In this document: piece after piece, positions 7,643-40,023 of the stretch | Layout: each line of letters begins with the position of its first letter | How positions within the stretch are numbered: position 1 is the first letter of the stretch | Source of the DNA: a virus | Reading direction: 5' to 3' (one strand) | IMG/VR virus record: IMGVR_UViG_3300025117_000032 | DNA: 64,000 bases | Notes under the pieces: generated by a model | The model's database searches: none | Told to the model about the DNA's origin: nothing | The model's input: only the letters and a program-made list of their open reading frames with translations | Made by a program: the position numbers and the translations under genes

Positions 7643-8002
7643 TTATTTCTTTTTCTTTTCTTGATACTTTTTTTCTAAACCTGGGTTTGTGAATGCTGCT
7701 TCGTTTGTTTCCTCGCTCTTTTCATTGAATCTGCTTGTCAACGATTTGAAGTCAAAATCCGATATGACATAAAACGTAAAGTCACCATACATCTTGAACT
7801 CATGCACAAACTTTCCACCCATGACACGCTTTCTGCCAACATTGGTTATGAACTTACTCTTCTTTGACATCATCTGTATGATCCTGTCAAACATGACCCA
7901 AGCCTTCAACGGAGCTTTCTTAGACTTAGCTTGTTCTGGACCCTCTTTGACAAGTTCCTTCTTACACTCAATAACTATTTTCTTCAACTCTGATTTCTTC
8001 AT
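7643..8002 (-). CDS. Hypothetical protein with MKKSELKK leader (putative internal head protein)
   Basis: MKKSELKKIVIECKKELVKE; RBS GAGGG. Confidence 0.6.
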   Translation of the reverse strand: MKKSELKKIVIECKKELVKEGPEQAKSKKAPLKAWVMFDRIIQMMSKKSKFITNVGRKRVMGGKFVHEFKMYGDFTFYVISDFDFKSLTSRFNEKSEETNEAAFTNPGLEKKYQEKKKK

Positions 8003-8020
8003 TGGTTTCCCTCTCTAGCG

Positions 8021-8293
8021 TTATTTATCGACAACTTTCACAACCTTTTTCCCAAACTGTTTCTTGTTTGTTGGTTTCTTGGTTGGCTTTCCTCTTTGCT
8101 TGTTTAAATAGTCGAGTTGTTCTTGACCACTCATAGGAACCAATCTCCCATTGATTGATTTGAACAAAGCTCTTCCACCCTTTCCATAATTCTTGCCACC
8201 AAGGAACTCAAGTCCCTTTTGCTTGATAACATCTTTTTTGTCGTACTCATTCAAGCATTCTCGAATGATCTTTTTCAATTCAGACTTTTTCAT
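8021..8293 (-). CDS. Hypothetical protein with MKKSELKK leader (putative internal head protein)
   Basis: Likely start at 8293 MKKSELKKIIRECLNE; basic C-terminus. Confidence 0.55.
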   Translation of the reverse strand: MKKSELKKIIRECLNEYDKKDVIKQKGLEFLGGKNYGKGGRALFKSINGRLVPMSGQEQLDYLNKQRGKPTKKPTNKKQFGKKVVKVVDK

Positions 8294-8340
8294 TGCTCTC
8301 TCTTGTTTAAATTGTGGGGCATATCCATAAGTTCCTTCAC

Positions 8341-9114
8341 TCAATAAATATCACTTGATTCCAGGATATGCTGGATGCCCTTGCTTTTTATATCACTTTC
8401 CCAAATCACCAAAAGTCTATATCCATGATCTATTGCACATTTTGTCTTTCTTTCATCTCTTTCAACCTTTATCACTTGTATTTTATCTCTTGGTTCTTTA
8501 TAAACACTTGGGTTACAATGCCAATAATCACCATTTACTTCTATCAATGTATTTTTGTTTGGGATGTATATGTCATACAAAAAATTTTCCACTCTAAATT
8601 GAGTTTCTATTTTTATTCCAGCTTCAATCAAATGCACACAAACATCGGTTTCTAGTTTTGAAACCTTATAGCCATTGGTTTTCATTTTTTCGATTCTTTT
8701 ACAACCCATTATTCTCTTTGATTCTTTAGTGTGCCTGCATCTTTTACCCTCCGCTCCAAACCCAACATTTCTCCCCTTCAATTTTTCAGATATTTTCTTT
8801 CTACTTTCTAGGTTTTTCATTGGGTTGTTTTCAATCAACCAATCAGAAACAAATTTACCTTGATCTTTATGTTTTTGGGGGCAGAAGTTTGAACAATATT
8901 TTTTGGGGGACATTTTGTAGGTTTCAAAAGCAATCCCACATTTACAAATTCGGTTCTCTTTACTGTTGGACTTTCTCCAAGTATACATGCAGGGTTTGGA
9001 ACAAAACCTTTGGTTCCTGTATTGCCAGGATTTTGGTGTAAATGGTTGCCCGCAATATTCACAAACTTTTTCATATGGTATTTTTGCTAACCCATAGCTT
9101 CCATCTCTTGACAT
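8341..9114 (-). CDS. Homing-type endonuclease (Zn ribbons, NUMOD3-like repeats, DUF559-like nuclease)
   Basis: CEYC…FCSKPC, ESRKKISEKLKG, HTKESK, YDIYIP…LIEVNGDYWH…LLVIWE. Confidence 0.75.
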   Translation of the reverse strand: MSRDGSYGLAKIPYEKVCEYCGQPFTPKSWQYRNQRFCSKPCMYTWRKSNSKENRICKCGIAFETYKMSPKKYCSNFCPQKHKDQGKFVSDWLIENNPMKNLESRKKISEKLKGRNVGFGAEGKRCRHTKESKRIMGCKRIEKMKTNGYKVSKLETDVCVHLIEAGIKIETQFRVENFLYDIYIPNKNTLIEVNGDYWHCNPSVYKEPRDKIQVIKVERDERKTKCAIDHGYRLLVIWESDIKSKGIQHILESSDIY

Positions 9115-20186: not shown

Positions 20187-21866
20187 TTACTTAAAGTATG
20201 AATCTTTCAATATTCCATGAAGGATATTGCGTAGTCCATTGTATCTGTCCGTAACATTTTTTCCAACACTCTCTACTAAATATGCGCCTGGAGTGGATGG
20301 CGACGAAACTGCGTCAAAAGCAATGAGTTCGAAGTCATCTTGAACCACATTTATTTCAGCCTCTTGCTGTAGTGATCCAATTCCCCTAGACGATATTCCG
20401 ATCTTCACACCCTGCTGAATAAGGTTTTTTAGAATCTGCCCTGGGGGTGTGTTCAAAATTTCCAGTGATCCCCTAACCTCTTCATCTCGCATATAAATAT
20501 CAGTTACTAAGTGTGAAACATTTTTTAATTCAATTATTGCCGAGTTTCCTGTAAGAAATGCTTTGCCATTTTCCTTCATATAAAAGTTTCCATTCTTAAC
20601 TGTTAGACAATATATATTTCCCTTGTGTTCTACTTTTTCTATCTTTAAGAACCTTTCATCCAAATATATACCATTTGTTGTGGATATGTTTAACTGATAT
20701 AGTGGTCGTTTATTTTTGGCCTCTATTAGATGATCAGCAAACATATAATCATCCTTGGTTATTATTTCTTGCCAATTTCCAGACCCACCAATTTTGATAA
20801 GACATTCGTGTAAATCCTCAACAAGCCTTTTCGAGGTGGAAAACAAATTTTGTCTAATTCCATGTTGGTGTGTTTGTTTTCTTCCATCTCCCATGATAAA
20901 CCAATCAATCAATTCAGATAGATAAATTGGATCAAGTTGTTTGATATCACTAGGGATATATTTTTCATGGCACTTTCCCAATATATCCAAATATTTTGCC
21001 AATCTTATATCTTGGATTGAGAATACTATTTTATCATTCCCCTTATTGTATTCTTTTATTTCAATTTGGAATTTGCTTAACATTTCTCTGATCAAATCAG
21101 CCTTAACACCAGATTTTTGTGTGATTACTGATAAATAAGATCCACCCCCTATGCGGGTGTGGCCCTCTGCGAGCCAAATTCCTAGGAATTGAACAAATGT
21201 CATTGTGTCTATTTTAAGTGGTTCCTCAACATTATTCGTAAATCTATTTGAATATTTTTCTTTTGACACACCTGGAATTTCAATGAAATCTGGGTTGTTA
21301 CCAAACCAATCAAAATTAGATTTTAATATTTTATGTTTATTGTATTTGCCTCTATTGTTGTGTATTTCCTCAATTGTGACATACTCCCTTTTTCCATACC
21401 TTGCTTCTAGTAACAATTTGTGGGTTGGGGTAAACGAAGAATCTATTCCTCTGCCTCTTATTTTATAAGCGTTTCCGCTATATGGTTCATCGATAATTCT
21501 TTCTATTTCATTTAATTCTAACCTGTTATTTTCATTGATTGCATATATCTTCTCCCCTAGTTTTAACTCAGAAAATGGTTTCCAACCAAATTCTGACAAT
21601 ACATCAAAGTTTTTTGATATATTGCAATCTGGGTGATCTAATTCCCCCATGGCCCTACGATCTTTTACTATGTGTGAATACTTCTTAACCTCTCTGGCTA
21701 AGATCTCTTTTGGGTAGACCCTACCATTGTGGTTTTTCACGTTGGCTTTTTGTAGAAGCTTGTCTTTGATTATTACTGGTTTGCTTGGGTTGTCTGCAAT
21801 CTCTTGTAAAATGTCAGCACCAACATCTAGTTCAAACCATTCTGTTATGAGTAGTTTTTGGTTCAT
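20187..21866 (-). CDS. Prohead protease, gp21-like, with intein
   Basis: KNHNGRVYP, AMGELDHP, KNVSH, GISSRGIGS, DAVSSPSTPGA. Confidence 0.92.
   Translation of the reverse strand: MNQKLLITEWFELDVGADILQEIADNPSKPVIIKDKLLQKANVKNHNGRVYPKEILAREVKKYSHIVKDRRAMGELDHPDCNISKNFDVLSEFGWKPFSELKLGEKIYAINENNRLELNEIERIIDEPYSGNAYKIRGRGIDSSFTPTHKLLLEARYGKREYVTIEEIHNNRGKYNKHKILKSNFDWFGNNPDFIEIPGVSKEKYSNRFTNNVEEPLKIDTMTFVQFLGIWLAEGHTRIGGGSYLSVITQKSGVKADLIREMLSKFQIEIKEYNKGNDKIVFSIQDIRLAKYLDILGKCHEKYIPSDIKQLDPIYLSELIDWFIMGDGRKQTHQHGIRQNLFSTSKRLVEDLHECLIKIGGSGNWQEIITKDDYMFADHLIEAKNKRPLYQLNISTTNGIYLDERFLKIEKVEHKGNIYCLTVKNGNFYMKENGKAFLTGNSAIIELKNVSHLVTDIYMRDEEVRGSLEILNTPPGQILKNLIQQGVKIGISSRGIGSLQQEAEINVVQDDFELIAFDAVSSPSTPGAYLVESVGKNVTDRYNGLRNILHGILKDSYFK
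20544..21626 (-). mobile_element. Intein with LAGLIDADG endonuclease in gp21 (361 aa)
   Basis: HPD|CNISK…FTPTHK…FLGIWLAEG…FIMGDG…IYCLTV…TGN|SAII. Confidence 0.9.
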
Positions 21867-21868
21867 AG

Positions 21869-22153
21869 CTATTTGGAGCCTCCCCCGTTCTTTAGTTCTT
21901 TAGCAATTTCTTCCTCAATTTGACTAAGTTCTCTGATAACTTTCTTGAAAATTTCCATAAAGACAGCCGCCTGCTTTTTTGATTTCATTTTTTCGATGAC
22001 ACTGTACACTACTTCCAATGCTTCTATTGCATTCCCATATACGTTTTGGTACTCTTTTCTGAAGTCCCATTCCACAGTGGTAAATCCATGTTTGTGGATG
22101 TTTGCTTCTAATATTGTTTCCTTGATAATCTTTTTCAGTTCGCTTTTCTTCAT
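21869..22153 (-). CDS. Hypothetical protein with MKKSELKK leader
   Basis: MKKSELKKIIKETILE; RBS GAGG. Confidence 0.65.
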   Translation of the reverse strand: MKKSELKKIIKETILEANIHKHGFTTVEWDFRKEYQNVYGNAIEALEVVYSVIEKMKSKKQAAVFMEIFKKVIRELSQIEEEIAKELKNGGGSK

Positions 22154-22156
22154 TGG

Positions 22157-22396
22157 TTAATCCTCTATTCTCAATTGACGATATCCATGCTTCTTTAGGT
22201 CACCCTCTATTTCTTCAACGTCAGCATCATTCCACTTTTTGAAAATCTTAGACCCATATCCAAGGTTGTAACTCCTATGGTTCAATTGTGACAGAACAAA
22301 TTTTTTCTCATCTTTACTCCAAACGGTAACGTAGTGATCAAATACATCCTCTTGGAGTATTTCTTTGATAAGCTTTTTCAGTTCACTCTTTTTCAT
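22157..22396 (-). CDS. Hypothetical protein with MKKSELKK leader
   Basis: MKKSELKKLIKEILQE. Confidence 0.65.
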   Translation of the reverse strand: MKKSELKKLIKEILQEDVFDHYVTVWSKDEKKFVLSQLNHRSYNLGYGSKIFKKWNDADVEEIEGDLKKHGYRQLRIED

Positions 22397-22948
22397 CTAT
22401 GCTGCCCCCTTTACCTTCGAAAAGTTCAAGTTGGATTTGCTCTCATTGAAGATATCCATATCCAAAATCCTGTTCATTGTGTCTTGTAACTCACTCTCAA
22501 AACTAGCAAAGGGAATATTGTTCACTTTTCCAGTATCCTTGTTTTGTGCTGGGCCACCATTCCAATCAATATCATTCACTGTATCGATATTGAATTCTAG
22601 TTCCAAAAACTGTCTTTTCCCTATCTCTGCCCCCTCTGCAATAAAACTATAATCAAAGATCAAAGAAGCTGGATCGAAAAACTTTGAGTTGAAGTAATTC
22701 TTGAAGCTCCTACCGCGTACCTTAAGTTCTTTTTCGAAGTCAGACATAATGACCCCAACCAACTCGTCTGATTCGTGTGTGGCCGTATTCTGGGCCTTTA
22801 CAACCGATAATTTAGGCTTCACCCAAGAGTTAAAGACGATGTACAAAGCCTCTGGTCTATTTTTGTTCTCAATAGCACCAATGGTCACTTTCCAATCTTT
22901 TCTGTTAACACTTAGTTCTTTCTTTGTTCCTGGTCCAAATTTAGCCAT
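22397..22948 (-). CDS. Hypothetical protein (head module)
   Basis: 183 aa, GGAGG RBS, tight packing. Confidence 0.6.
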   Translation of the reverse strand: MAKFGPGTKKELSVNRKDWKVTIGAIENKNRPEALYIVFNSWVKPKLSVVKAQNTATHESDELVGVIMSDFEKELKVRGRSFKNYFNSKFFDPASLIFDYSFIAEGAEIGKRQFLELEFNIDTVNDIDWNGGPAQNKDTGKVNNIPFASFESELQDTMNRILDMDIFNESKSNLNFSKVKGAA

Positions 22949-22960
22949 TAATTTCCTCCG

Positions 22961-23197
22961 TTACTTAACATAAAATATTGCTTTATAAGGAAACACATTG
23001 TCTGCCTCAATCTCTTTAGAAAGAATTTTCTTTTTAGTTAGCTTTTGTAGTAGATTCTTTATATCATCAAATTTGTGATAATCTCTTGCGTCCCATGTAA
23101 AAGGAAAGCTTATCGGTAGCTTTACCTTTTTGTATCCATCCATAACATCCTCATTCAAGGTTTCCTTGATAATTTTTTTCAGTTCACTTTTCTTCAT
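22961..23197 (-). CDS. Hypothetical protein with MKKSELKK leader
   Basis: MKKSELKKIIKETLNE. Confidence 0.65.
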   Translation of the reverse strand: MKKSELKKIIKETLNEDVMDGYKKVKLPISFPFTWDARDYHKFDDIKNLLQKLTKKKILSKEIEADNVFPYKAIFYVK

Positions 23198-25885: not shown

Positions 25886-28800
25886 TCATCCTTTGCGTTT
25901 TCTATCAATCAACCAAGTCAAACTTTCTCTTTCTCCCCTTGGACCAATCTGTACCCAAGGATTGGGGTTTGCCCTAGAATTCATGAACCCCCTATTTGTA
26001 GGAAGAGAATTCTCTGCTAGATTACTTTCCCCTTGCATAGCTTTCAAGGCAGCAACCACAGCTTCCCTTCCACTTGATCTGTCTTTAAGGTGAGTAGACT
26101 TAACAAACAATCCAATCCCCCCAGCTATACACAAGTCATCATTATACCCTGGCATAGCTTGAGGCTTTCCATTTATCCAAACCAAAGTCCTAAGCTCTGA
26201 AATTGTCCTGGTAGATCTTATCTTAAAGCTCCCAACTCTAATACCCTCTTCCAATGCAGAAATAATAAGTGGCCTAGAAGTATTCGTTGTCTGAAACCCA
26301 GGTATAGCAGAGACATCATGTTTGGTTGGGTGATCATTCATCTTTTTCATTTTCTCTTTGCTGTACATTCCCTTTTGTGAATAGAATAAGTTCTTATAAT
26401 CAAGGTCAACTAGCTTAAGACAAGTTGCATATCCAATGCTATTAGCTTCAGGAACAATCAAAGCATTGTTATAGAGAGTTCCAACATCATACAACAACCC
26501 AGCATATTCATCTGGAGGAAGTCTATGCCTGTACTCTGCAACTTGCTCATCACTAGAATTGATAACATGAAAAGCAGAGTAATCAGAAGAATCTCCCCTA
26601 GCTACGTCCGCACATATTAAATACTCTTCGCCTTCAATGGGGTCTTCCCATACCCAAAGATTCTTATAGAACATACTGAAAGGAACATCTTCCTTTTTAT
26701 GGTACTGCAACACTTCAAAGCCTTCATATAGAGGTTTTCTACATTCTTTCTCTGCTTCAAGTATATACTTGTTCTCAATAACCATATCCCCAGAACCAAG
26801 AAAGTCCATATCCAACTCTTGAGCGATAAGCCTGTCAGAAGCTAACTGTCTCTTTTGGTTTTCATACCAAGATGAGGTAGGATGAAAACTAGATTCAGCA
26901 CAAATCTCACAAAGCACTTCACCATTGAACATAGATCCTGTCAATTGTCTATTACCACAACTGGCACAAATCCACTCCAAGTTTTCAGAGTATAATGGAT
27001 GTTCCGTCCAATGAATGGTTATCGGATTAAAGTCAGATTCTTTGTTGACCGCAAGCGTCCATTGCTTGTGATACCAATTTCCGACTCCCTTGGGGGTTTG
27101 GTGTCCAAGTATTGAGTTATATATTACCGAGTGATCCCAAAATGATATCATGTTGATATCACTTTCTGAAATTTCAGAAGAAATTTTGTGTGAGTTTTTG
27201 GTGCTAGGCAATGAAAAATCAACTGTAGGGTTTGAGCTAACTGTAATGCTACGAATAGGTTCCCACTTGACGTTTGGTGAGAGTATCTTATCTAGTTCAA
27301 TTGTTAGTTTGTTAGGAATGGTTGTGTTTTGTAGGCAAATATTTTTTAGCTTCAATAGGTTTTGGCGTGAGGTATGGTGGGTTTTGTACAAACTTTTTTT
27401 ATTTAGTACCCCATTAATATTCAAACCCCACTTCTTAATCAGCGTCCACGTTCCAAAAGGTAATAAGTCAAACAAACACTTGCAGTAATAAACTCCGTTG
27501 GGTATTACATCATGTGAGCTTGACTTTACAATATTACTTTTTGTGAAGCTCTCACTTGGGTTTTTTGAGCTAAGTGTTTGTGTAATATTACTTTGGTTAG
27601 CTGCCCGGCATTTTTTTTCTAATTGATTCTCATTTTCAACCTCAAAATTTTCTGGCACGTTTCTTGCTATAGCAAGTTCTGTGCCAAAACCGGGCTGCAC
27701 AGAATTTTGTTTGGCACGATTCTTGCTAGACCCACACTCAAATTGGTTTTGACTAGCATTTTCATCTGTAAGCAATTTGTCGGGCAGCCCATAGTTGGCA
27801 CGATTCTTGCTAAAGGTTTGATTTATAATGCTCTCTTTTTGTGAAATTGTGAACCCAGTTGTTAATTTTTTATCATACAAAACGTCAAAACAATTCATTT
27901 TACCCCTTATGGGTTTTTGATTATTTTGATCTATAGTGTGTTTTTCCCCGGAAATTTCAGTTTTGGTTGTTAAAAGTTTAACAAGATTTTGGGAAGCAAT
28001 TTTCGTTCCAAGTTTTTGGTTGTCTGCGTCCCTGCATGTTAAAGTTTTAACATCTCCTGATTCTAAATCATCAAAATTTTCGTCCCTAGCAAGAAGCGTG
28101 CCAGGCAAAATTGGCAATAGGTGGAGTTTACCGATACCTTCAAGTTCTGTGCCTGTTAATTTTTTAACATGCGGAGCAGCAGCCAACAAAACATTATGAT
28201 TCTCAAATTCGCCATCACAGTTTTTGATATTTGGTTTTATTGTATGATTTTTAACTGCAAAATTTCTGGTATGATTCTTGCTAGGGGAATTTTGTTCGAT
28301 TTGGTTGGCACAGAACTTGCTATAGCAAGAATCATGCCAAGTCTGGGATGTAATTATTTGATTCTCATTTTCAATTGGTGAGCGCATCGCTTGACTTTGT
28401 AGCAAAATGCCGGGCAACTCACAAAGCATAGGAAGGACGTTTTGATTATCCTGTTTTTCCTGGGAGTTGAACCCAATCAATTCATAGAACAATTTCGATT
28501 CTGATTGATTGAGAGTTAACCTGTACTGGATGGTATCGTATTGAAAGTAGCTGTTCCTTCCATTGACTGCCCCGTACTCACTCAAGATTCCAATGTTGTC
28601 TAGGATGATTCTTATTTGATCTATTAGAACCTTTGAGGAAAGTCCTATGGACACAATCCCTCTGTCTGCTCTGGAGAATCCTTTGCAATCAAAAATTCCG
28701 TTCACCAAGGCCCCTAGATTGCCCCCAGACAACTCCAATAGTCTTGGAGGTATGGAGCGTTGGGTGTTCTTTGTGTCTGGTTTAAAGCCCAGGTAAAGAA

Positions 28801-29989
28801 GGAATTCAATGAAGTTCTTTGAAGTGGTAAAAATATTGTCAGTATGGGTTTGGATGTCTACATTTTCAAGAGTAAATCTATCCTTCATATCCTGGGTTAT
28901 AGAAACAAAACTTACATATCCCCCTATGAGTTCATTTGCCTGTTGAGAATTTATTATGCTCATTGATCCATTGGCAATGTACACACCCAGGAGATAGGCA
29001 AGGTCTGGTGTAATCACTGTTGGAAGAAAGTTATCATGCAGGGTTGTGTTTGTGCTAAGGTCTGGTGTTAGACGAAAATCGGTTAGTGTATCGTTATTTC
29101 CCCAGACATTCATCCCATACTGTACTGCAACGAAATCATTAACTTCTAAATCTCTCAATTGAAACCAATCGTATCTTCCAACTTTATTTGAGAAAGCCCA
29201 TAGCTTATGATTCAATGAACCCTCTAGCTTTGCACTCCTAGTAGATATAATTTTAGTTTTACACACTCCATTGTTGTAAGCTATGCTGCCAGTTCTTAGT
29301 TTATCCTTGCCTAACACACCATAAGAAGCAACTGTTTGTTCACCAAGTAAGTCCAGGTTTGCATAGTCACCAATTTGCTTTATACCCCTATCCGTGTAAA
29401 TGTAAGTGTCAGGTGTAACGCAAGAGATAACAATACCAGCACCACCCATTGACAATGTAGGGTAAGCTGCTGCCCACAAGTCCTCAACCTTATTCGTAGG
29501 AATGGCTGCTGCCTCATCAATAACCAATAGGGTCAATGATTCAGACCTAGCTGCATCATCTGTGGTGGCGTGAGCAATAACCCTGGAACCATTAATGAGT
29601 TCGATTGAACCCTGGTTATCCAATAAAAGTTTTGGAACCAACCAAGTGGGAGACTTTTTCAGTATCAACTTTATCTTGCGAACAAACCCAGAAGAGTTCA
29701 CTTGCTTATTTGCCACAACTGCAACCTCTGTTGCCTTATGAAAAGCCACCAACCAAGCAATGTAACCTGCTGCTATTGTTGAAATACCCAACTGTCTTGA
29801 TTTTAGAATGATGTTGAATCTATGCTCTTGGAATTCTCTCAAGCAATCTTTCTGGAAATCATACAACTGAAACTTAACGTACCCACCCTTTGGGTCTCTC
29901 ACCACACCATAATTGAGTAGGTAATATTCTGGACTAGCGGAACACTTGATGATCTCTTCGGTCATCTGTTGCTTGGATAATGCAGGCAT
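25886..29989 (-). CDS. Terminase large subunit, T4 gp17-like, with intein
   Basis: LYDFQ, ILKSRQLGIST, LVIDEAA, IVIS|…|TPKG, ADVARGDSSDYS, EANSIG, GYNDDL. Confidence 0.95.
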   Translation of the reverse strand: MPALSKQQMTEEIIKCSASPEYYLLNYGVVRDPKGGYVKFQLYDFQKDCLREFQEHRFNIILKSRQLGISTIAAGYIAWLVAFHKATEVAVVANKQVNSSGFVRKIKLILKKSPTWLVPKLLLDNQGSIELINGSRVIAHATTDDAARSESLTLLVIDEAAAIPTNKVEDLWAAAYPTLSMGGAGIVISCVTPDTYIYTDRGIKQIGDYANLDLLGEQTVASYGVLGKDKLRTGSIAYNNGVCKTKIISTRSAKLEGSLNHKLWAFSNKVGRYDWFQLRDLEVNDFVAVQYGMNVWGNNDTLTDFRLTPDLSTNTTLHDNFLPTVITPDLAYLLGVYIANGSMSIINSQQANELIGGYVSFVSITQDMKDRFTLENVDIQTHTDNIFTTSKNFIEFLLYLGFKPDTKNTQRSIPPRLLELSGGNLGALVNGIFDCKGFSRADRGIVSIGLSSKVLIDQIRIILDNIGILSEYGAVNGRNSYFQYDTIQYRLTLNQSESKLFYELIGFNSQEKQDNQNVLPMLCELPGILLQSQAMRSPIENENQIITSQTWHDSCYSKFCANQIEQNSPSKNHTRNFAVKNHTIKPNIKNCDGEFENHNVLLAAAPHVKKLTGTELEGIGKLHLLPILPGTLLARDENFDDLESGDVKTLTCRDADNQKLGTKIASQNLVKLLTTKTEISGEKHTIDQNNQKPIRGKMNCFDVLYDKKLTTGFTISQKESIINQTFSKNRANYGLPDKLLTDENASQNQFECGSSKNRAKQNSVQPGFGTELAIARNVPENFEVENENQLEKKCRAANQSNITQTLSSKNPSESFTKSNIVKSSSHDVIPNGVYYCKCLFDLLPFGTWTLIKKWGLNINGVLNKKSLYKTHHTSRQNLLKLKNICLQNTTIPNKLTIELDKILSPNVKWEPIRSITVSSNPTVDFSLPSTKNSHKISSEISESDINMISFWDHSVIYNSILGHQTPKGVGNWYHKQWTLAVNKESDFNPITIHWTEHPLYSENLEWICASCGNRQLTGSMFNGEVLCEICAESSFHPTSSWYENQKRQLASDRLIAQELDMDFLGSGDMVIENKYILEAEKECRKPLYEGFEVLQYHKKEDVPFSMFYKNLWVWEDPIEGEEYLICADVARGDSSDYSAFHVINSSDEQVAEYRHRLPPDEYAGLLYDVGTLYNNALIVPEANSIGYATCLKLVDLDYKNLFYSQKGMYSKEKMKKMNDHPTKHDVSAIPGFQTTNTSRPLIISALEEGIRVGSFKIRSTRTISELRTLVWINGKPQAMPGYNDDLCIAGGIGLFVKSTHLKDRSSGREAVVAALKAMQGESNLAENSLPTNRGFMNSRANPNPWVQIGPRGERESLTWLIDRKRKG
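27623..27639. promoter_or_regulatory. Fur-like box, copy 1
   Basis: TTGAAAATGAGAATCAA (minus strand), identical to 28358..28374. Confidence 0.55.
27653..28339. promoter_or_regulatory. Array of sigma54 (-24/-12) consensus sites
   Basis: TGGCAC-N5-TTGCT or close variants at +27653, -27686, +27712, +27796, -28010, -28103, +28267, +28306, -28339. Confidence 0.8.
28358..28374. promoter_or_regulatory. Fur-like box, copy 2
   Basis: TTGAAAATGAGAATCAA (minus strand). Confidence 0.55.
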
Positions 29990-30000
29990 AAAAAGCGAAA

Positions 30001-30030
30001 CCCCCTATGATATATAAATATCACAGGAGG
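30001..30030 (-). promoter_or_regulatory. Putative late promoter (GATATTTATA) within RBS-occluding hairpin, terminase
   Basis: CCTGTGATAT-TTAT-ATATCATAGG inverted repeat upstream of ATG 29989. Confidence 0.55.
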
Positions 30031-30060
30031 CTTGCTTGATGCAAAAATTGGTAACTGGTA

Positions 30061-38168: not shown

Positions 38169-38856
38169 TTTTTACCTCTTTCTGTTTTTCCACAATTTAA
38201 ACCTATATTCGATATTGTTCACAGCCTTAAAAACCATAAGCCCCCACACCTGATATAAGCAAGAGAGCAACAATCGCAAAGACCATCCAAAATGGAAGTG
38301 TTACTAACCACCAAGACCACGCAATAACCCCGCACAGCTTAAGCGCCACAAACAAAACCCCAAGCACACTCAAAATTCCCATAGTTATATCATCCTTTCA
38401 TTTACCAACCCATGTCTTTAGGAAGCTCACTGTCTAACATGATCTTTCCACCATCGTACCATTCAGCAAGAGCTTCACGCATGAATTCTACAAACTCATT
38501 TCCGTCCCCACCTGGATCACCACTTTTCACGGTAATGGAAATTTCATCTTTCCCCCTAATAAGAACAATTATACCACAACCGGGACTGGTTGTCAATTTT
38601 TTCTAACTATCAAGAAGTTGGTAAAAAACTAGAATTCTTTATTGAGAATGATCCTCATTTTCCTGGTTGTGTAGTGGGTTGGATGGTTAACCTTGTCCTC
38701 ACTCATTCTCGTTAACCACAGAAACCATGACAAGACCAAGGACAAAAATTAAAAAGCCAAGCATAGATCGTTCATATCCATCCAAACTGCTATCCAACAC
38801 CCCAAGAAAACAAAGCGTCAATGCTGAAAACACGATTAGGTTTGAAAGAACTTTCT

Positions 38857-40023
38857 TCACTTTGTTACCCCCTTAACATTGATTAATGGACGTACCCTAT
38901 GCACGATTTCCACAAGATCCTTTTGCGCCAACATCACATCGAAAATGTTCTTGTATGCGAATGGGGATTCATCAAGGGTATCGGCATTTACCTTTGCCTT
39001 GATCCCTCTCATTGCAACTTCAAAGTCAACCACGTTGGTTGATTCCTTGATAGCCTTTCTGCTGGACACCCTCCCGGCACCGTGAGAACTTGACCACAAT
39101 GATTCTGGGTTTCCTTTACCTTCAACGATAAAAGAACCATCCCTCATGTTGCCTGGAATGACACCCATCATTCCTTCCTCTGCATGAGTAGCACCCTTGC
39201 GATGAATCCACAATCCGTTCTTCAAGACGGCATGGTTGTGGTTTCTGTTGATGAAGCTTACATCATCTTGGCTTGGTACACAGTCAACAAACTTCTTTAT
39301 GGCTGCATAGACGGAACGATTGATGCATAGTCTATTGGTCAAAGCAAATTCCAAGCACCCATTCATATCGGCAATGTATTCTTCACCAAGGGTGGAATCA
39401 GTTCTGAATCCAAAATGTCCCTCACTTGCCTTTCCACTTGGGGAAGCAAGTTTCATGTATGCTTGAGCTACCTTCCAACCGAACCCCCTGGACCCAGAAT
39501 GAATAATAATCCAACAGCTATCGTTTTCATCGTAGCCAATTTCTATGAAGTGATTCCCACCGCCAAGGGTTCCGACTTGCCTTAAGGCTTCACAATCCTT
39601 GAAGATCCCCGTTGCCAGCGGAGAAAAATCCTCTATGGTAGAATCATCCCAACCACAGGCTTGTTCTTTTTGGTGATGAGAAAACCCAACGGGGACAATC
39701 TTATAGATCTCGTTGAAGATGTTATCTGCATTAGCGATAATGTCTTCCTTGGAAGTGTCTAGCTTGGTAGCACACATCCCACACCCAATATCGTAGCCGA
39801 CAAATTGCGGAGAGATCATTTCTCTTGTCGCCACAACACCCCCTATGGGTAATGAATACCCAACATGGGCATCTGGCATCAAAGCCCCTCTAACAACCCA
39901 ATCTAATTCCATAACACCAATAAATTGGTTTAGAGCATTTGGATCTAAGGTTTCCAGATTAGCATATATGTGAAAGGGTTTTCCCAATTTTTCTAGTTTA
40001 GTTAGCATGTTATTCTCCATCAT
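38857..40023 (-). CDS. rtcB: RNA 3'-phosphate/5'-OH ligase RtcB
   Basis: MPDAHVG, VGYDIGCG, GTLGGGNHFIE, HSGSRG, HNH, HRKGA, PGNM, SSHGAGR, DESP.AYK. Confidence 0.95.
   Translation of the reverse strand: MMENNMLTKLEKLGKPFHIYANLETLDPNALNQFIGVMELDWVVRGALMPDAHVGYSLPIGGVVATREMISPQFVGYDIGCGMCATKLDTSKEDIIANADNIFNEIYKIVPVGFSHHQKEQACGWDDSTIEDFSPLATGIFKDCEALRQVGTLGGGNHFIEIGYDENDSCWIIIHSGSRGFGWKVAQAYMKLASPSGKASEGHFGFRTDSTLGEEYIADMNGCLEFALTNRLCINRSVYAAIKKFVDCVPSQDDVSFINRNHNHAVLKNGLWIHRKGATHAEEGMMGVIPGNMRDGSFIVEGKGNPESLWSSSHGAGRVSSRKAIKESTNVVDFEVAMRGIKAKVNADTLDESPFAYKNIFDVMLAQKDLVEIVHRVRPLINVKGVTK

What the first reader, a model, noticed from the sequence alone, without database searches (positions are those of the whole stretch)
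27520..28440. Array of sigma54 and other host regulator sites hidden in-frame in the terminase intein
Seen: the intein has a ~300-aa low-complexity insertion between the LAGLIDADG domain (…IGFNSQEKQ) and the usual resumption (…HDVIP). Its DNA holds nine matches to TGGCAC-N5-TTGCT (variants TGGAAC, TGGTAT, TGGCAT) at +27653, -27686, +27712, +27796, -28010, -28103, +28267, +28306, -28339, plus a decayed one near 28139-28154. Two pairs are convergent around the palindrome TTGCTATAGCAA. The same double site is translated in different frames (GTELAIARNVP vs WHDSCYSKFCAN), so the constraint is on the DNA rather than the peptide. Established: this is the sigma54 (RpoN) -24/-12 consensus, and sigma54 holoenzyme forms stable closed complexes without an activator. 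Inference: the phage uses a self-excising intein as a neutral harbour for cis-acting DNA. Possible roles are a sigma54/RNAP sponge amplified by replication, a roadblock on the terminase-head operon, or a host-state-responsive promoter hub. I know of no description of such an arrangement.
Basis: partly seen in the sequence, partly recalled or inferred. Interest (0 to 1): 0.95.

Follow-up and report, generated by a model that had tools for sequence, protein, structure and literature searches.

The report
Sigma-54 site array inside terminase intein
An uncultured phage has packed nine binding sites for a host transcription factor (sigma-54), plus other host-regulator boxes, into the self-removing part of its DNA-packaging enzyme gene; many other phages keep such arrays between genes near their packaging genes or genome ends, but I found no other case inside a gene's intein and no paper describing either arrangement.

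Summary
Confirmed. The terminase intein carries a ~297-codon in-frame insert (27542-28432) that no homologous intein I examined has. It holds nine sigma54 (-24/-12) sites, including the genome's eight best (codon shuffles: 0.02). It also holds four TGTTAA-N4-TTAACA palindromes, two Fur-like boxes and two IHF boxes, laid out mirror-wise. The same protein is on 13 contigs from three archives, so misassembly is unlikely. The splicing domain is intact and the endonuclease is the most decayed of 73, so the intein looks domesticated.

The head-to-head site is phage-typical: about 250 copies in viral and metagenome loci, 2 in 185,579 prokaryote genomes. It lies upstream of terL in 17 of 18 lineages, and phage K8 has seven such sites in its mapped terminal repeat. 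No other copy is in an intein. This scan has noted intergenic arrays before on other DNA; the intein location is new.

Best reading (0.45): a landing pad for parked host sigma54-polymerase tied to the packaging start or genome end, built stepwise in frame. Rivals: promoter hub 0.25, sponge 0.18. A roadblock is unlikely. Binding is untested, the host and termini are unknown, and this is a single case.

The parts
25886..29989 (-). Terminase large subunit gene, 1367 aa with intein (592 aa spliced)
   Evidence: (PHROG terminase large subunit 9e-39)
27098..29422 (-). Intein, aa 190-964 (Cys1 to His-Gln, then Thr); splicing (Hint) domain conserved
28451..28990 (-). Decayed LAGLIDADG endonuclease: both catalytic acids replaced (E340N, D436K); 13 of 43 conserved sites changed
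27542..28432 (-). In-frame insert, about 297 codons (boundaries +-10 codons), no stop, predicted disordered, no protein homologue
27653..27686 (.). Head-to-head sigma54 pair 1 (+27653 and -27686)
27712..27727 (+). sigma54 site, full consensus
27796..27811 (+). sigma54 site, full consensus
27995..28010 (-). sigma54 site (TGGAAC variant) at the mirror centre of the array
28088..28103 (-). sigma54 site; its -24 end overlaps a TGCCNGGCA word
28139..28154 (-). Decayed sigma54 site abutting palindrome 4
28267..28282 (+). sigma54 site (TGGTAT variant)
28306..28339 (.). Head-to-head sigma54 pair 2, inverted copy of pair 1 (33 of 35 nt)
27859..27876 (.). Palindrome 1, TGTTAA-N4-TTAACA type (Rex-like or enhancer-like)
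27967..27984 (.). Palindrome 2, exact match to the published clostridial Rex consensus; begins at the predicted +1 of site -28010
28036..28053 (.). Palindrome 3
28153..28170 (.). Palindrome 4; about -130 from the predicted start of site +28267
27620..27639 (-). Fur-like box 1 (AATGAGAATCA core)
28355..28374 (-). Fur-like box 2, 19 of 20 nt identical to box 1
27811..27823 (-). IHF consensus match, abutting site +27796
   Evidence: P about 0.025 for two
28351..28363 (-). IHF consensus match, overlapping Fur-like box 2
27593..27614 (.). Outer inverted repeat arm with TGCCNGGCA core (unassigned motif)
28404..28425 (.). Outer inverted repeat arm, partner of 27593-27614 (19 of 22)
27140..27190 (-). 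Second, small in-frame insert (about 16 aa) in the C-terminal splicing region, rich in palindromes
29998..30033 (-). Hairpin containing a TATTTATA word just upstream of terL; candidate phage late promoter (inferred)

Best explanation
The insert is cis-acting DNA, not a protein domain. It is a landing pad for host sigma54-RNA polymerase and probably for a Rex-type or enhancer-type regulator, Fur and IHF. It belongs to a widespread phage element that normally sits between genes at the early/packaging junction or in the terminal repeat. Here it grew stepwise and in frame inside a terminase intein whose endonuclease has died. Protein splicing removes the unstructured peptide, so the terminase is unharmed. 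Most likely role: sigma54 holoenzyme stays parked as a closed complex, since the phage encodes no activator, and marks or shields the DNA near the packaging start or genome end. Shown: the sites, their enrichment, the frame constraint, the state of the intein, and the positional rule in other phages. Inferred: binding (about 0.85), splicing (about 0.85), and the link to the genome end (about 0.5).
For: Enrichment against two nulls. The genome's top sites are all here, and the genome is a complete circle. Spacers show no mirror similarity once motifs are masked, while the motifs stay near consensus. A random sequence of this make-up has about 16 stops per frame, minimum 6 in 2000, and all four palindromes occupy the only stop-free phase, so wholesale capture of an intergenic block is very unlikely. 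Splicing domain 3 of 46 conserved sites changed (median 3); endonuclease 13 of 43 (median 3, the highest of 73). Model: folded Hint and LAGLIDADG at pLDDT above 90, insert below 50. Head-to-head site upstream of terL in 72 of 73 loci, 50 within 2.5 kb (null 22.7, max 36), and in 17 of 18 lineages. K8, with mapped termini, has 7 sites in its 1188-bp terminal repeat. L271 has 8 sites and 2 of the same palindromes right before terS-terL. No activator or sigma54 gene found.
Against: Termini and host of this phage are unknown. Its T4-type head genes could mean headful packaging without fixed ends. Five relatives (portal about 57% identical) have an intein-free terL and no array within 10 kb, so the array is not needed for packaging across the clade; their whole genomes could not be scanned. 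It is a single case: no relative carries the insert, so conservation could not be tested. Here the array lies 1.5-2.4 kb downstream of the terL start, not upstream as elsewhere. No binding or expression data.
Confidence: 0.45

Rival explanations
1. Host-state-responsive promoter hub. The palindromes are enhancer sites for a host activator (or Rex operators), IHF bends the DNA, and the sites fire sense RNA towards the portal and head genes and antisense RNA against terL. Each head-to-head pair is an overlapping two-way promoter.
For: Three palindromes fit TGT-N10-ACA, the NifA-type enhancer (own knowledge), and two IHF boxes are present. Palindrome 4 lies about -130 and -170 from sites +28267 and +28306. 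In other phages the pair sits between divergent genes in 43 of 89 cases against 15% of all gene pairs. Some intragenic sigma54 sites are real promoters with long leaders (PMC4591121).
Against: Nine sites in mixed orientation would collide. No internal ribosome site in frame with terL was found downstream. terL has its own candidate late promoter and the phage encodes a sigma70-like factor. These palindromes are not generally enriched next to pairs in other phages (ratio 1.5).
Confidence: 0.25
2. Sponge. Replication multiplies the array and drains sigma54 holoenzyme, Rex and Fur from host promoters, blunting stress responses or freeing host metabolism.
For: Several regulators are packed into one stretch. 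The sites are near-perfect consensus. No phage activator. Titration of regulators by decoy sites is documented in bacteria (PMC8599769, abstract).
Against: A sponge has no need for a fixed position, yet the arrays are tied to terL and terminal repeats. Overlapping pairs probably bind one enzyme at a time and so waste capacity (inference).
Confidence: 0.18
3. Neutral or selfish DNA: a miniature transposon-like element or a runaway repeat expansion tolerated inside the intein.
For: 22-bp inverted repeats near both ends and a short duplication of the native linker beside one end. Some site flanks share ancestry. No relative has it.
Against: No second copy in the genome, in phages or in plasmids. 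No target-site duplication seen. Motifs are kept while spacers diverge. The same site geometry recurs in about 250 phage-type loci.
Confidence: 0.06
4. Transcription roadblock that delays the terminase-head operon.
For: The sites lie inside the first gene of the operon, in both orientations.
Against: In E. coli, intragenic sigma54 binding had no effect on the overlapping gene (PMC4591121).
Confidence: 0.04
5. The selected feature is a long RNA hairpin (processing or translational control).
For: The sense RNA folds with z = -8.4 through nested long-range stems.
Against: The pairing comes from the repeated motifs; masked spacers show no complementarity. No Rfam match.
Confidence: 0.02

Closest known systems
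Bacterial sigma54 (RpoN) -24/-12 promoters, including intragenic sites (PMC12316311; PMC4591121)
   Same: Consensus TGGCAC-N5-TTGC; stable inactive complex without an activator; intragenic sites exist; IHF and enhancer-like boxes nearby.
   Different: Nine sites in 690 bp with overlapping face-to-face pairs, a geometry found twice in 185,579 prokaryote genomes. Here the DNA appears to exist for the sites, whereas bacterial intragenic sites are single and lie in ordinary coding sequence.
Phage T5 injection-stop region with its DnaA boxes (bioRxiv 10.1101/866236; PMC10644984)
   Same: A phage stretch packed with host-protein sites, repeats and palindromes, tied to genome ends, function unproven. 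T5-like My1 and D260 add sigma54, Fur and LexA boxes.
   Different: T5's region is non-coding (97 stop codons) and DnaA-based, and T5's own injection-stop region gave no sigma54 site in my scan. This array is translated and spliced out.
LAGLIDADG inteins in phage terminases (PI-type fold: TliVMA, PI-PfuI, PI-SceI)
   Same: Hint fold, Cys-His-Gln-Thr splice residues, same insertion site as many homologues.
   Different: The endonuclease has decayed, but the intein has grown by about 300 codons instead of shrinking to a mini-intein.
Cis sites inside reading frames: lambda ori iterons in gene O, pac in P22 terS, Rickettsia palindromic elements (own knowledge, not tested)
   Same: DNA-level signals embedded in frame in an essential gene.
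   Different: There the peptide stays in the mature protein; here an intein would remove it.
sigma70 bidirectional promoters (PMC12825309)
   Same: Symmetric overlap in which one binding event excludes the other and transcripts diverge.
   Different: Described for sigma70; I found no sigma54 equivalent.

Membership tests
sigma54 promoter | GG at -24 and GC at -12 at exact spacing | tested here: met
   9 sites; consensus
sigma54 promoter | Binding by RpoN holoenzyme | not testable with these tools
   needs EMSA or ChIP
sigma54 promoter | Cognate enhancer-binding protein and enhancer | tested here: inconclusive
   none in the phage; candidate enhancers and IHF boxes present; host unknown
sigma54 promoter | Transcript starting about 12 nt after the -12 element | not testable with these tools
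Intein (Hint) | N-terminal Cys, block B His, block F Asp, terminal His-Gln/Asn, +1 nucleophile | tested here: met
Intein (Hint) | Hint fold | tested here: met
   (best match 7qsu, E 1e-16)
Intein (Hint) | Splices with the insert present | not testable with these tools
   inferred from the essential host gene and conserved residues
Active LAGLIDADG homing endonuclease | Acidic catalytic residue in both motifs | tested here: not met
   E340N, D436K; unique among the homologues
Rex operator (clostridial type) | TTGTTAA-N4-TTAACAA | tested here: met
   one exact match, three with 2 mismatches; the same word also fits enhancer and CRP/FNR geometry, so the binder is not fixed
Fur box | 7-1-7 or 19-bp inverted repeat | tested here: inconclusive
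   3 mismatches in 14, P 0.075; the core word occurs only twice in the genome, both in the insert, and a better copy precedes an early promoter
T5-type terminal host-factor array | Located in a terminal repeat or first-injected DNA | not testable with these tools
   circular assembly, no reads
T5-type terminal host-factor array | Non-coding, with ordered DnaA boxes | tested here: not met
   open frame; no DnaA box in the insert
Miniature inverted-repeat element | Multiple copies and target-site duplication | tested here: not met
   single copy; no duplication seen at the repeat ends

The most novel reading that the evidence does not exclude
A domesticated intein: after losing its endonuclease it was kept and enlarged as a protein-neutral carrier for a cis-acting pad that parks host sigma54-RNA polymerase at the packaging start or genome end. 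This would be one form of an undescribed, widespread phage use of sigma54 closed complexes as a structural factor rather than for transcription.
Probability: 0.4. Interest if true: 0.9.

Novelty: new variant of a known kind. Interest (0 to 1): 0.76.

Why it matters
It would give inteins a use at the DNA level, as space for regulatory DNA inside an essential gene, which bears on whether inteins are only parasites. It also points to an unexplained link between many phages and host sigma54. That link is directly testable, because cultured phages (Pakpunavirus K8 and B31, Vibrio D260) carry the same sites in or near their terminal repeats and rpoN mutants of such hosts are standard tools. The frame constraint in this genome is unusually clear evidence that such arrays are built by selection, site by site.

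Tried and rejected
Misassembly: rejected; the identical protein is on 13 contigs, and the three shown (ENA, Logan, JGI) are base-identical over 27000-29500. They may partly share samples. Protein domain: no homologue of the insert peptide (lengths 751-2393 aa only), low model confidence. Known RNA: no Rfam hit. Source in cultured phages or plasmids: none. One simple inverted duplication: the motifs mirror but the masked spacers do not. Horizontal transfer of the 34-mer from marine phages (33 of 34 identical): not claimed, since most positions were fixed by my search pattern and convergence is plausible. FNR, CodY, LexA, DnaA and sigma70 sites: not enriched in the insert. Another array inside an intein or long frame: none among 252 other distinct sites, longest covering frame 283 aa. 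Literature: ten searches found no phage sigma54 array or intein-borne cis DNA (among them); the library lacks most subscription papers.

Full report
Setting. The window lies in a 152-kb phage contig. Its ends overlap by 9 nt and the last gene reads across the join, so the genome is a complete circle. It has T4-type portal, protease and capsid genes, 26 tRNAs in the window and a sigma70-like gene. The nearest cultured portals are only 41-44% identical. The host is unknown.

Observation. terL (25886-29989, minus strand) encodes 1367 aa with an intein at aa 190-964. With an approximate matrix that I built from the known consensus, the eight best sites in the genome fall in the insert. Codon shuffles give 0.017 sites and synonymous recoding of the same peptide gives 0.77 (max 4 in 2000), so the peptide does not explain them. 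The same protein is on 13 contigs from ENA, Logan and JGI, and the three shown are base-identical across the intein. A read check was not possible.

The insert. Homologous inteins at the same site have a linker of about 17 aa where this one has 313. The insert is about aa 520-816, window 27542-28432. Its peptide has no homologue, has ordinary complexity and is predicted unstructured, while the Hint and endonuclease domains model at pLDDT above 90 and match PI-type inteins. The splicing domain deviates from the family at 3 of 46 conserved sites, which is the median. The endonuclease deviates at 13 of 43, the most of 73 sequences, including both catalytic acids. Inference: the intein still splices, no longer homes, and has grown rather than shrunk.

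Other motifs. Four TGTTAA-N4-TTAACA palindromes (0.01 expected), three TGCCNGGCA words (the only three in the genome), two IHF matches (P 0.025) and two Fur-like boxes (weak on their own) are present. One palindrome equals the published clostridial Rex consensus (PMC5367854). The same word fits NifA-type enhancers and CRP/FNR geometry (own knowledge), so the binder is open. Five motif pairs mirror around about 28005, where one sigma54 site sits, but masked spacers show no mirror similarity. A random sequence of this composition carries about 16 stops per frame, and each palindrome is open in only one phase, which all four use. The array was therefore most likely assembled or tuned in place, in frame, through viable steps.

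Wider context. The head-to-head site occurs in 20 IMG/VR contigs, 101 metagenome stretches and over 120 viral stretches with a looser spacer, but in 2 places among 185,579 prokaryote genomes. None of 252 other distinct copies lies in a frame longer than 283 aa, so none is in an intein. Where a terL is in the fetched DNA, the site is upstream of it in 72 of 73 loci, within 2.5 kb in 50 (null 22.7, max 36), and upstream in 17 of 18 lineages at 35% identity. L271 is an intergenic counterpart: eight sites and two of the same palindromes directly before terS-terL. Cultured phages have the element too. In Pseudomonas phage K8, whose termini were mapped (PMC4773840), seven sites fall in the 1188-bp terminal repeat, three more near 80.4 kb, and no strict match elsewhere. 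The T5-like phages My1 and D260 combine sigma54 with DnaA, LexA and Fur boxes, recalling the T5 injection-stop region, whose DnaA boxes are published but untested. Earlier notes of this scan report such intergenic arrays on other DNA. I re-tested their rarity in bacteria and their link to terminase; I found no note of one inside an intein.

Mechanism. Sigma54 holoenzyme binds but stays inactive without an activator (PMC12316311), and the phage encodes none. The positional rule favours a job tied to the packaging start or genome end, where pac, cos and terminal repeats usually lie (own knowledge). I therefore rank first a parked complex that marks or shields that DNA (0.45). RNA polymerase is known to aid packaging initiation in T7 and T4 (own knowledge, not tested here). 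Against this: the ends of this phage are unknown, the array is downstream of the terL start, and five relatives lack both intein and array within 10 kb. A regulated promoter hub (0.25) fits the enhancer-like and IHF boxes and the excess of divergent flanking genes elsewhere. A sponge (0.18) fits the mix of regulators but not the fixed position. A roadblock (0.04) conflicts with E. coli data (PMC4591121). The strong RNA fold is best explained by the repeated motifs.

Novelty. Each part has a known relative: sigma54 sites, T5-type host-factor arrays, decayed inteins and cis sites in reading frames. I found no paper on phage sigma54 arrays or on an intein carrying cis DNA. I class it as a new variant of a known kind, interest 0.76. 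It is held back by being one case with no binding data.

Noticed in passing
window 38596-38895: A better Fur-like box (about 38645-38663) lies about 50-60 bp upstream of a near-consensus sigma70 promoter, with an IHF match and a Rex-like palindrome nearby; a possible small host-regulated early promoter.
   Followed up: partly
window 27140-27190: A second, 16-aa in-frame insert in the intein's C-terminal splicing region consists largely of DNA palindromes; its GAAATTTC core recurs in the main insert.
   Followed up: partly
L267:1-1188 (phage K8 terminal repeat); L261:4003-4036: Pakpunavirus phages carry seven sigma54-like sites in the terminal repeat and a head-to-head pair at the far edge of the early block; a cultured test system.
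   Followed up: partly
L262:3679-4230; L263:4970-5500: T5-like Vibrio D260 and Pectobacterium My1 have sigma54, Fur, LexA and DnaA boxes side by side in gene-poor stretches.
   Followed up: partly
L014:5839-7428: A 169-kb phage repeats a cassette of sigma54 pair plus sigma70-like promoter before several small genes.
   Followed up: no
L008:194-677: Fifteen sigma54 sites in 480 bp, with 3- and 4-bp spaced face-to-face pairs; the 3-bp pairs create the TGCCNGGCA word.
   Followed up: no
L165:12335-13183: One head-to-head site lies in the longest other open frame (283 aa), which reads like a helix-turn-helix protein but has no PHROG hit.
   Followed up: partly
window 21869-23197, 7643-8344: Several unrelated small proteins start with a shared MKKSELK leader.
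   Followed up: no
window 20187-21866; genome C1:4786-8508: Further inteins in the prohead protease and the ribonucleotide reductase have no sigma54 array.
   Followed up: yes
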